A stretch of DNA of 64,000 nucleotides. Source: Escherichia coli. GTDB lineage: Bacteria; Pseudomonadota; Gammaproteobacteria; Enterobacterales; Enterobacteriaceae. Both the position numbers and the translations under genes were made by a program. The notes under the pieces are model-generated. The model worked only from the letters and a program-made list of their open reading frames with translations. It was not told where the DNA came from and searched no databases. Where the stretch lies: assembly GCF_003334765.1 (NCBI RefSeq), contig NZ_QOWT01000004.1; one strand, 5' to 3'. Positions 6,795-6,842 of the stretch are shown in pieces (positions within the stretch are counted from its first letter, which is position 1; every line of letters begins with the position of its first letter).

Positions 6795-6810
6795 GCGGAA
6801 ACGTTTTCCT
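6795..6810 (-). promoter_or_regulatory. PurR operator-like site in pyrC promoter region
   Basis: GCGGAAACGTTTTCCT, close to PurR box consensus (a)CGCAAACGTTTNCNT, 52-67 nt upstream of pyrC ATG. Confidence 0.6.
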
Positions 6811-6842
6811 TTGCACGAAAAATAAAGGGCGCGAATGCGCCC
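6811..6842 (-). terminator. Rho-independent terminator downstream of yceB
   Basis: Hairpin GGGCGC-GAAT-GCGCCC (6827-6842); on the minus strand it is followed by UUUAUUUUUCG. Confidence 0.6.

What the first reader, a model, noticed from the sequence alone, without database searches (positions are those of the whole stretch)
6795..6842. PurR-like operator adjacent to the yceB terminator in the pyrC control region
GCGGAAACGTTTTCCT resembles the PurR operator and lies upstream of pyrC, a known PurR-regulated pyrimidine gene. Immediately upstream is the yceB terminator hairpin, so within ~50 bp the sequence terminates one gene and controls the next.
Basis: partly seen in the sequence, partly recalled or inferred. 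Interest (0 to 1): 0.2.

Follow-up and report, generated by a model that had tools for sequence, protein, structure and literature searches.

The report
Known PurR operator in pyrC promoter

Summary
The window is E. coli K-12 (99.98% identical to MG1655). Both parts of the observation hold. GCGGAAACGTTTTCCT (6795-6810) is the best PurR-matrix hit in the 64 kb and the only intergenic hit among the ten best. It fills 16 of the 17 bp between the inferred pyrC -35 (GTGCAA) and -10 (TATCCT). The box is conserved in 17 Enterobacteriaceae species. It is absent from Yersinia, Erwinia, Pectobacterium, Hafnia and Photorhabdus, which keep the -10 and leader, so the constraint comes from a bound protein and not from RNA polymerase. 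The yceB terminator is an 8-pair GC-rich hairpin plus TTTATTTTT, starting 4 nt after the yceB stop codon and ending 1 nt before the -35. Its stem is replaced or compensated in other genera. Two bases downstream of the box begins the Rfam PyrC_leader, the known CTP/GTP start-site-switching hairpin. Two caveats: a published ChIP-chip study did not detect PurR at pyrC in vivo, and the operator is conserved in a sub-optimal form (never G at position 13), which fits the modest repression reported. Verdict: already known, low interest.

The parts
6849..6851 (-). yceB stop codon (TAA)
   Evidence: ORF list and sequence; yceB is annotated at 6849-7409 in MG1655.
6825..6844 (-). yceB intrinsic terminator hairpin: GAGGGCGC, loop ATTC, GCGCCCTT
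   Evidence: Terminator scan finds 8 pairs, 6 of them G-C. RNA fold gives -16.5 kcal/mol, z = -4.0, 0 of 200 shuffles as stable. The stem is kept in E. albertii and Citrobacter with different loops, carries a compensatory C-G to T-A change in Enterobacter sp. Bisph1, and is replaced by unrelated stems in Kluyvera and Mangrovibacter.
6818..6826 (-). Terminator T tract (TTTATTTTT); its first two T also close the stem. It ends 1 nt before the pyrC -35
   Evidence: Sequence; terminator scan.
6811..6816 (-). Inferred pyrC -35 hexamer GTGCAA (17-bp spacer to the -10)
   Evidence: Inference from spacing. TGCAA is invariant in 16 Enterobacteriaceae sequences and marks the upstream edge of the conserved block. 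R-TGCA is also kept in most of the box-less Yersinia, Erwinia and Pectobacterium promoters. It matches only 3 of 6 consensus positions, so the generic promoter scan did not report it.
6795..6810 (.). PurR operator (PUR box): AGGAAAACGTTTCCGC on the minus strand, GCGGAAACGTTTTCCT on the plus strand
   Evidence: Top matrix hit in the window. Listed verbatim among the RegulonDB PurR sites. Conserved in 17 Enterobacteriaceae, with variation mainly at the positions the matrix tolerates.
6788..6793 (-). pyrC -10 hexamer TATCCT
   Evidence: It is the first six positions of the Rfam PyrC_leader model. It is conserved across Enterobacterales. [quoted passage not shown]
6779..6781 (-). Alternative transcription start sites: C7 (6781), C8 (6780) and G9 (6779), counted from the -10
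   Evidence: Assigned from the sequence plus the published description: CTP starts 6-7 nt after the -10, with two extra C compared with the G-start transcript (PMC6524683). Not measured here.
6757..6781 (-). pyrC leader hairpin: CCGGC (6781-6777) pairs with GCCGG (6761-6757) around a 15-nt loop. The 3' arm overlaps the Shine-Dalgarno GGAG at 6758-6755
   Evidence: Rfam RF02372 consensus structure, 68.7 bits against a gathering score of 50. In the Enterobacteriaceae, Rosenbergiella epipactidis and Edwardsiella the 5' arm begins 6-7 nt after the -10; Yersinia has a compensatory CCGC/GCGG variant.
6741..6743 (-). pyrC start codon ATG
   Evidence: ORF list and annotation.

Best explanation
The 105-bp yceB-pyrC intergenic region of E. 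coli K-12 holds three known elements in a row on the minus strand. (1) A Rho-independent terminator ends yceB transcription. (2) The weak sigma-70 pyrC promoter follows, and 16 of its 17 spacer bp are the PUR box. The PurR dimer, loaded with hypoxanthine or guanine, binds this box at about -29 to -14 relative to the C7 start. It is inferred to block RNA polymerase access to the -35/-10 region, giving modest purine-dependent repression of about 2-fold. (3) The leader provides the main, pyrimidine-dependent control. At high CTP/GTP ratios, transcripts start at C7/C8 and form a CCGGC/GCCGG hairpin that hides the ribosome-binding site. At low ratios, transcripts start at G9 and are translated. Shown here: the sequence elements, their statistics, their relative positions, their conservation, and the curated status of the box. 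Taken from literature: PurR binding, purR-dependent repression, and start-site switching. Inferred: steric occlusion as the mode of repression, and the -35 assignment.
For: Identity of the locus. Box: best consensus match; best hit of a matrix trained without it; p = 8.3e-7, with about 1.5e-4 hits expected in the intergenic region; the only intergenic hit among the top ten. Curation: the exact 16-mer is in the RegulonDB v6 PurR list. A 16-mer is expected about 0.002 times by chance in a 4.6-Mb genome, so this must be the same site. Cho et al. count pyrC among the 15 PurR regions characterised in vitro and by mutation. Regulation: PMC3159470 lists pyrC among PurR-dependent, directly repressed genes. 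PMC6245113 calls the effect modest and comparable to pyrD. Conservation: all 17 Enterobacteriaceae have a box at this position (top window hit 14.6-19.1 bits; the positional box itself 11.6-19.2 bits), and in 16 the top hit ends exactly 1 nt before the -10. Ten of 16 positions are invariant, and variation falls mainly at positions 2, 4, 13 and 16. Sister families keep the -35-like TGCA, the -10 and the leader but have an unrelated spacer scoring 6.8 bits or less, so RNA polymerase itself does not constrain the spacer sequence. Leader: Rfam RF02372 and the published mechanism. Terminator. The 70-nt core is 100% identical in 5206 of 5426 complete E. coli genomes.
Against: The one genome-wide in vivo study held, a ChIP-chip experiment with and without adenine, did not detect PurR at pyrC, and its authors could not explain why (PMC3159470). 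The box lacks the G at position 13 that 27 of 28 ChIP-bound sites carry, costing 3.9 bits, so it is probably a weak operator. The primary footprinting and TSS papers from 1987-1994 could not be read. The position relative to the TSS therefore rests on a review's description plus the sequence. The RegulonDB table gives sequences without gene names.
Confidence: 0.93

Rival explanations
1. The 16-mer is a fortuitous PUR-box look-alike in the promoter spacer that PurR does not occupy in vivo, and the purine effects on pyrC are indirect.
For: ChIP-chip found no PurR peak at pyrC. A score of 17 bits or more is expected about 8 times per genome by chance. The box deviates at the near-invariant position 13.
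Against: About 1.5e-4 such hits are expected in this particular intergenic region. The box has stayed at a fixed position across 17 genera or species, while the same spacer diverges freely in families that lack the box. It is curated as an experimentally known site, and its characterisation is cited as in vitro binding plus mutational analysis. pyrD, which has a stronger box, gave only a marginal ChIP ratio of 1.01 and only with adenine, so failing to detect a weaker site is plausible.
Confidence: 0.04
2. The inverted repeat GGAAA-ACG-TTTCC acts as a nucleic-acid hairpin, for example as part of yceB termination or of read-through RNA structure, and not as a protein-binding site.
For: The 111-nt read-through RNA folds with a 5-bp GGAAA/UUUCC stem-loop in the minimum-energy structure.
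Against: It lies upstream of the pyrC starts and downstream of a strong terminator, so it is rarely transcribed. Orthologues break the stem without compensation: position 13 changes C to A in 5 of 17, and position 2 is C instead of G in 11 of 17, while the pairing partners stay fixed. The variation follows what the PurR matrix tolerates and not base pairing. Rfam finds no RNA family there at E <= 1; the PyrC_leader model starts at 6793.
Confidence: 0.01
3. The site is recognised mainly by another LacI/GalR-family repressor with a similar AAACGTTT core, and PurR binding is incidental.
For: Only a resemblance recalled from memory: several family members, such as Cra/FruR, recognise half-sites related to GAAAC. 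The conserved non-consensus position 13 has no explanation.
Against: No tool result supports it. The site scores within the range of genuine PurR sites, and the literature attributes the regulation to purR. Vibrio hannami pyrC carries a perfect PurR consensus at the equivalent position.
Confidence: 0.02

Closest known systems
E. coli PurR operators (PUR boxes) of the purine regulon, in particular the curated pyrC site (Choi & Zalkin 1990; Wilson & Turnbough 1990; RegulonDB)
   Same: It is the same locus and the same 16-mer. It is a 16-bp imperfect palindrome with a central CG. It overlaps the core promoter, as do 44% of PurR-regulated promoters.
   Different: Nothing differs in kind. Compared with strong pur operators it lacks G13, gives only modest repression, and was missed by ChIP-chip.
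pyrD PurR box (CGGAAAACGTTTGCGT)
   Same: It is another pyrimidine gene under modest PurR cross-pathway repression, and also under CTP/GTP start-site switching. The left half, GGAAAACG, is identical.
   Different: The pyrD box keeps the consensus right half TTTGCGT and was ChIP-detected, weakly and only with adenine.
Rfam RF02372 PyrC_leader (translational control by nucleotide-sensitive start-site selection)
   Same: It is the directly adjacent element at 6793-6744. It matches the full model at 68.7 bits.
   Different: It is a separate layer of control that responds to pyrimidines and acts on translation. It occurs in Enterobacterales families that lack the PurR box.
Canonical Rho-independent terminators
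   Same: It has a GC-rich stem, a 4-nt loop and a T tract, and sits just after the stop codon.
   Different: None. The only notable feature is that its T tract ends 1 nt from the next gene's -35 in Escherichia and Citrobacter.

Membership tests
PurR operator (PUR box) | 16-bp imperfect palindrome matching ACGNAAACGTTTGCNT, with a central CpG | tested here: met
   2 mismatches to ACGCAAACGTTTTCNT. 17.05 bits on a matrix built from 28 independent ChIP sites, which rank between 11.9 and 25.0 bits. The deviation at position 13 (C instead of G) costs 3.9 bits.
PurR operator (PUR box) | Located where binding can interfere with transcription of the regulated gene (overlapping the promoter, or a downstream roadblock) | tested here: met
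   The box occupies 6810-6795, between GTGCAA (6816-6811) and TATCCT (6793-6788). It lies at -29 to -14 relative to C7. The TSS positions come from the literature description and were not measured here.
PurR operator (PUR box) | Physical binding by PurR with its corepressor (hypoxanthine or guanine) | not testable with these tools
   Literature only: it is listed as a known RegulonDB site, and Cho et al. count pyrC among the 15 regions characterised in vitro and by mutation. In vivo ChIP-chip was negative.
PurR operator (PUR box) | purR- and purine-dependent repression of the downstream gene | not testable with these tools
   Literature: pyrC is in the PurR-dependent expression set and is described as directly repressed. 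The magnitude is modest.
PurR operator (PUR box) | Conservation of the site in orthologous promoters of species that have PurR | tested here: met
   All 17 Enterobacteriaceae have a box at the fixed position 1 nt before the -10 (top window hit 14.6-19.1 bits; positional box 11.6-19.2 bits; alignment). It is absent (6.8 bits or less) from other Enterobacterales families and present again in two Vibrionaceae. Whether purR is present in those genomes was not checked.
Rho-independent terminator | Stable GC-rich hairpin immediately followed by a U-rich tract on the transcribed strand | tested here: met
   8 pairs (6 G-C), followed by TTTATTTTT. -16.5 kcal/mol, z = -4.0.
Rho-independent terminator | Positioned just downstream of a gene's stop codon, with the structure conserved more than the sequence | tested here: met
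   The stem starts 4 nt after the TAA stop. Hairpin-plus-T-tract is detected downstream of yceB in 9 of 16 Enterobacteriaceae loci by a strict perfect-stem search, with different or compensated stems.
Rho-independent terminator | Actual 3' end formation or termination efficiency | not testable with these tools
   No Term-seq or in vitro transcription data were found in the searchable literature.
Rfam PyrC_leader (RF02372) | Score above the curated gathering threshold, with the consensus 5-bp stem pairing the start region to the SD | tested here: met
   68.7 bits against a threshold of 50, over the full-length model 1-50, with all five pairs standard.

The most novel reading that the evidence does not exclude
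The pyrC operator may be held by selection at sub-optimal affinity. Position 13 is C or A, never the consensus G, in all 17 Enterobacteriaceae examined, although G is found in 27 of 28 ChIP-bound PurR sites and in Vibrio pyrC. PurR would then only trim pyrC expression and not shut it off. In Escherichia and Citrobacter the terminator also abuts the -35, so any yceB read-through RNA contains both hairpin arms and would be translationally silent. That would insulate pyrC expression from upstream transcription. Neither idea appears in the literature I could read, and both are inferences.
Probability: 0.2. Interest if true: 0.2.

Novelty: already known. Interest (0 to 1): 0.05.

Why it matters
It matters little beyond confirming that the first-stage reader can recognise a textbook regulatory site from raw sequence. 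PurR control of pyrC is an established example of purine-pyrimidine cross-pathway regulation. The adjacent leader is a classic case of NTP-sensing through transcription start-site choice. The comparative results add modest detail: the box is confined to the Enterobacteriaceae and reappears in Vibrionaceae, the operator is conserved in a sub-optimal form, and the PurR and start-site-switching layers are separable. None of this changes the picture.

Tried and rejected
(1) The fully symmetric idealised consensus ACGCAAACGTTTGCGT with up to 3 mismatches missed the site and found only one unrelated hit at chance level, so it is too strict for a site with two GGAAA-type halves. (2) The short core pattern GCAAACGTTTNC with 1 mismatch gave 4 hits against 2.4 expected, which is uninformative. 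(3) The generic sigma-70 scan found no promoter in 6500-7100. The pyrC promoter matches only about 7 of 12 consensus positions, so its hexamers had to be assigned from conservation, Rfam and the literature. (4) The primary papers were not held: Choi & Zalkin 1990 (PMC209125), Wilson & Turnbough 1990 (PMC209126), Wilson et al. 1992 (PMC205745), Liu & Turnbough 1994 (PMC205450) and Turnbough & Switzer 2008 (PMC2415746). One literature search timed out and one with a date limit found nothing. (5) A search for papers mentioning both yceB and pyrC found nothing on read-through or operon structure. (6) Window-wide significance of the matrix hit alone is weak: 22% of simulations reach the score. I therefore rejected sequence match alone as sufficient evidence and relied on position, conservation and curation. 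(7) The RNA or DNA hairpin reading of the box was rejected because orthologues show uncompensated stem breaks. (8) The MG1655 RefSeq annotation carries no regulatory features for this region.

Full report
**Locus.** The 401 bases around the finding are 100% identical to E. coli K-12 MG1655 and are present in all 5,426 complete E. coli genomes. Over its whole length the window aligns to NC_000913.3, about 1,115,866-1,179,864, with 11 mismatches and 1 gap. Positions 6700-6900 are identical and in register, so there window x equals genome x + 1,115,864. All nearby genes are on the minus strand: mdtH, grxB, yceB (7409-6849), pyrC (6743-5697), dinI and bssS. The finding lies in the 105-bp yceB-pyrC intergenic region (6744-6848).

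**Anatomy.** Read on the minus strand, the region is: TAA (yceB stop, 6851-6849), TCAC, GAGGGCGC-ATTC-GCGCCCTT (hairpin, 6844-6825), the T tract TTTATTTTT (6826-6818, sharing its first two T with the stem), C, GTGCAA (inferred -35, 6816-6811), AGGAAAACGTTTCCGC (PUR box, 6810-6795), T, TATCCT (-10, 6793-6788), TTGTGT, CCG (starts C7, C8 and G9, 6781-6779), GC, a 15-nt loop, GCCGGAG (3' arm plus Shine-Dalgarno), and ATG (6743-6741).

**Is the PurR-like sequence there, and is it more than chance?**
- It is at 6795-6810, exactly as reported.
- It is the best match in the window to the published asymmetric consensus, with 2 mismatches.
- I built a position weight matrix from the 28 motif instances in the PurR ChIP-chip study of Cho et al. 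2011 (PMC3159470). That study did not detect pyrC, so the test is out of sample.
- The pyrC box is the top hit in the 64 kb at 17.05 bits, inside the range of the training sites (11.9-25.0).
- The score alone is not compelling. 22% of simulated windows reach it. The exact p-value of 8.3e-7 per position and strand implies about 0.11 hits per window and about 8 per genome.
- Position makes it significant. About 1.5e-4 such hits are expected in this intergenic region, and the other nine of the ten best hits are all intragenic: lpxL, two in rne, cobB, lolE, grxB, solA, ptsG and trhO.

**Is it the curated site?** Yes. [quoted passage not shown] The table does not name genes. The held literature attributes direct and modest PurR repression of pyrC to Choi & Zalkin 1990 and Wilson & Turnbough 1990. 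I could not read those primary papers.

**Comparative evidence.** I fetched 80 pyrC loci from GTDB species genomes.
- All 17 Enterobacteriaceae carry a box: Escherichia, Citrobacter, Kluyvera, Pseudocitrobacter, Superficieibacter, Pseudescherichia, several Enterobacter-like isolates, Mangrovibacter and others. The best matrix hit upstream of pyrC scores 14.6-19.1 bits, and in 16 of the 17 it ends exactly one base before the -10 hexamer. In the remaining locus (L012) the box read at that position scores 11.6 bits.
- In an alignment of 16 of these sequences, the conserved block begins abruptly at TGCAAA. It runs through the box, the -10 and the CCGGC start region, resumes at GCCGGAGC, and ends at the ATG. 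Everything upstream is lineage-specific.
- Ten of the 16 box positions are invariant. Variation is concentrated at positions 2 (C/G), 4 (A/T), 13 (C/A) and 16, and the first two are the positions most degenerate in the PurR matrix.
- Yersinia, Rahnella, Erwinia, Pectobacterium, Brenneria, Hafnia, Photorhabdus, Edwardsiella and Arsenophonus mostly keep a TGCA-type -35, and keep the TATCCT -10 and the leader. Their spacers are unrelated and score 6.8 bits or less.
- The spacer sequence is therefore not constrained by RNA polymerase. Its invariance in Enterobacteriaceae reflects a bound factor whose tolerance profile matches PurR.
- Vibrio hannami has a consensus box (GCGTAAACGTTTGCGT, 21.2 bits) two bases before a TATACT -10. 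A Photobacterium species has a 15.2-bit box further upstream.
- Within E. coli, the 70-nt core from terminator to start sites is 100% identical in 5,206 of 5,426 genomes.

**The terminator.** The scan reports an 8-pair stem (6 G-C), a 4-nt loop and a T-rich tail. The fold is -16.5 kcal/mol with z = -4.0, and no shuffle in 200 is as stable. yceB is the upstream gene throughout the Enterobacteriaceae and in Erwinia. The GGGCGC/GCGCCC stem recurs with different loops in E. albertii and Citrobacter. It carries a compensatory C-G to T-A change in Enterobacter sp. Bisph1. Unrelated GC-rich stems replace it in Kluyvera and Mangrovibacter. This is the pattern expected of a functional terminator. Only in Escherichia and Citrobacter does the T tract run to within one base of the -35 (stem end 79-82 nt before the ATG). 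In the other Enterobacteriaceae where a hairpin was detected, the stem ends 91-107 nt before the ATG and an A-rich spacer intervenes.

**The neighbouring leader.** Rfam RF02372 (PyrC_leader) matches 6793-6744 on the minus strand at 68.7 bits against a gathering score of 50. Its consensus stem CCGGC/GCCGG pairs the start region with the Shine-Dalgarno sequence. A review describes the mechanism (PMC6524683). At high CTP/GTP ratios, transcription starts with C, 6-7 nt after the Pribnow box. The two extra C allow a hairpin that sequesters the ribosome-binding site. Transcripts that start at G are translated. This fixes C7 at 6781 and G9 at 6779. The PUR box is then at -29 to -14 from C7, or -31 to -16 from G9. 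The hairpin is kept in families that lack the PurR box, and Yersinia has a compensatory CCGC/GCGG variant. The two control layers are therefore separable.

**Mechanism.** PurR with its corepressor binds in the -35/-10 spacer, and I infer that it occludes RNA polymerase. Cho et al. report this placement for 44% of PurR-regulated promoters. Repression is modest. The operator lacks the G at position 13 present in 27 of 28 ChIP-bound sites. This fits weak binding and may explain why ChIP-chip missed pyrC. pyrD, with a better box, gave only a marginal signal.

**Rivals.**
- A chance look-alike is disfavoured by position, conservation and curation.
- A hairpin role for the inverted repeat is rejected because orthologues break the predicted GGAAA/UUUCC stem without compensation.
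- Recognition by another LacI/GalR-family protein has no support from any tool result.

**Verdict.** The feature is already known and ordinary, so interest is low. The only mildly new points are the clade distribution of the box, the conserved sub-optimal position 13, and the lineage-specific packing of the terminator against the -35.

Noticed in passing
window 6744-6793 (minus strand): Rfam RF02372 PyrC_leader matches the full model at 68.7 bits. It begins two bases downstream of the PurR box, and its stem CCGGC/GCCGG overlaps the Shine-Dalgarno sequence.
   Followed up: yes
window 6798 (box position 13); loci L002-L015, L030, L036: Box position 13 is G in 27 of 28 ChIP-bound PurR sites. In all 17 Enterobacteriaceae pyrC boxes it is C (12) or A (5), never G. 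The operator looks conserved in a sub-optimal form.
   Followed up: partly
literature, PMC3159470: The genome-wide PurR ChIP-chip study did not detect binding at pyrC (or at glnB), although both were previously characterised sites. The authors give no explanation.
   Followed up: partly
L016-L034 (Yersinia, Rahnella, Erwinia, Pectobacterium, Hafnia, Photorhabdus and others), about 60-130 nt upstream of pyrC: These Enterobacterales families keep the TATCCT -10, the CC-rich start region and the GCCGGAGC ribosome-binding site, but have no PurR box (6.8 bits or less). PurR control of pyrC is clade-restricted, while start-site switching appears more widespread.
   Followed up: partly
L075 (Vibrio hannami), about 75-90 nt upstream of pyrC; L061 (Photobacterium piscicola), about 103-118 nt upstream: Vibrio hannami has a consensus PUR box GCGTAAACGTTTGCGT (21.2 bits) two bases before a TATACT -10. 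Photobacterium has a 15.2-bit box further upstream. This suggests ancestral or convergent PurR control of pyrC in Vibrionaceae.
   Followed up: no
L047 (Erythrobacter MAG), 105 nt upstream of the pyrC match: A 15.0-bit PurR-matrix hit, ACGAAAGCGTTTCCGC, lies upstream of an alphaproteobacterial pyrC. It could be chance or a site for another LacI-family regulator.
   Followed up: no
window 86-101 (lpxL), 27854-27869 (rne), 63712-63727 (cobB): These are the next-best PurR-matrix hits (15.1, 14.0 and 13.9 bits). All lie inside coding sequences and are at the level expected by chance.
   Followed up: partly
window 28528-28864 (minus strand) and 30725-30893 (plus strand): Rfam matches to the RNase E 5' UTR element (rne5, 260 bits) and to the sRNA SraB (211 bits). 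Both are known features of this part of the K-12 chromosome.
   Followed up: no
whole window compared with NC_000913.3: The window is not byte-identical to MG1655. It has 11 mismatches and 1 gap over 64 kb, including a 1-bp register shift that is resolved between bssS and dinI. It therefore comes from a very close K-12 relative or a variant assembly.
   Followed up: partly
E. coli genome search results: Five matches to the yceB-pyrC region lie on records labelled as plasmids. These may be F-prime-type elements or misassigned replicons.
   Followed up: no
window 6500-7100: The generic sigma-70 scan reports no promoter here. The genuine pyrC promoter (GTGCAA, 17 bp, TATCCT) matches only about 7 of 12 consensus positions, which shows that consensus scans can miss real, weak, regulated promoters.
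   Followed up: yes
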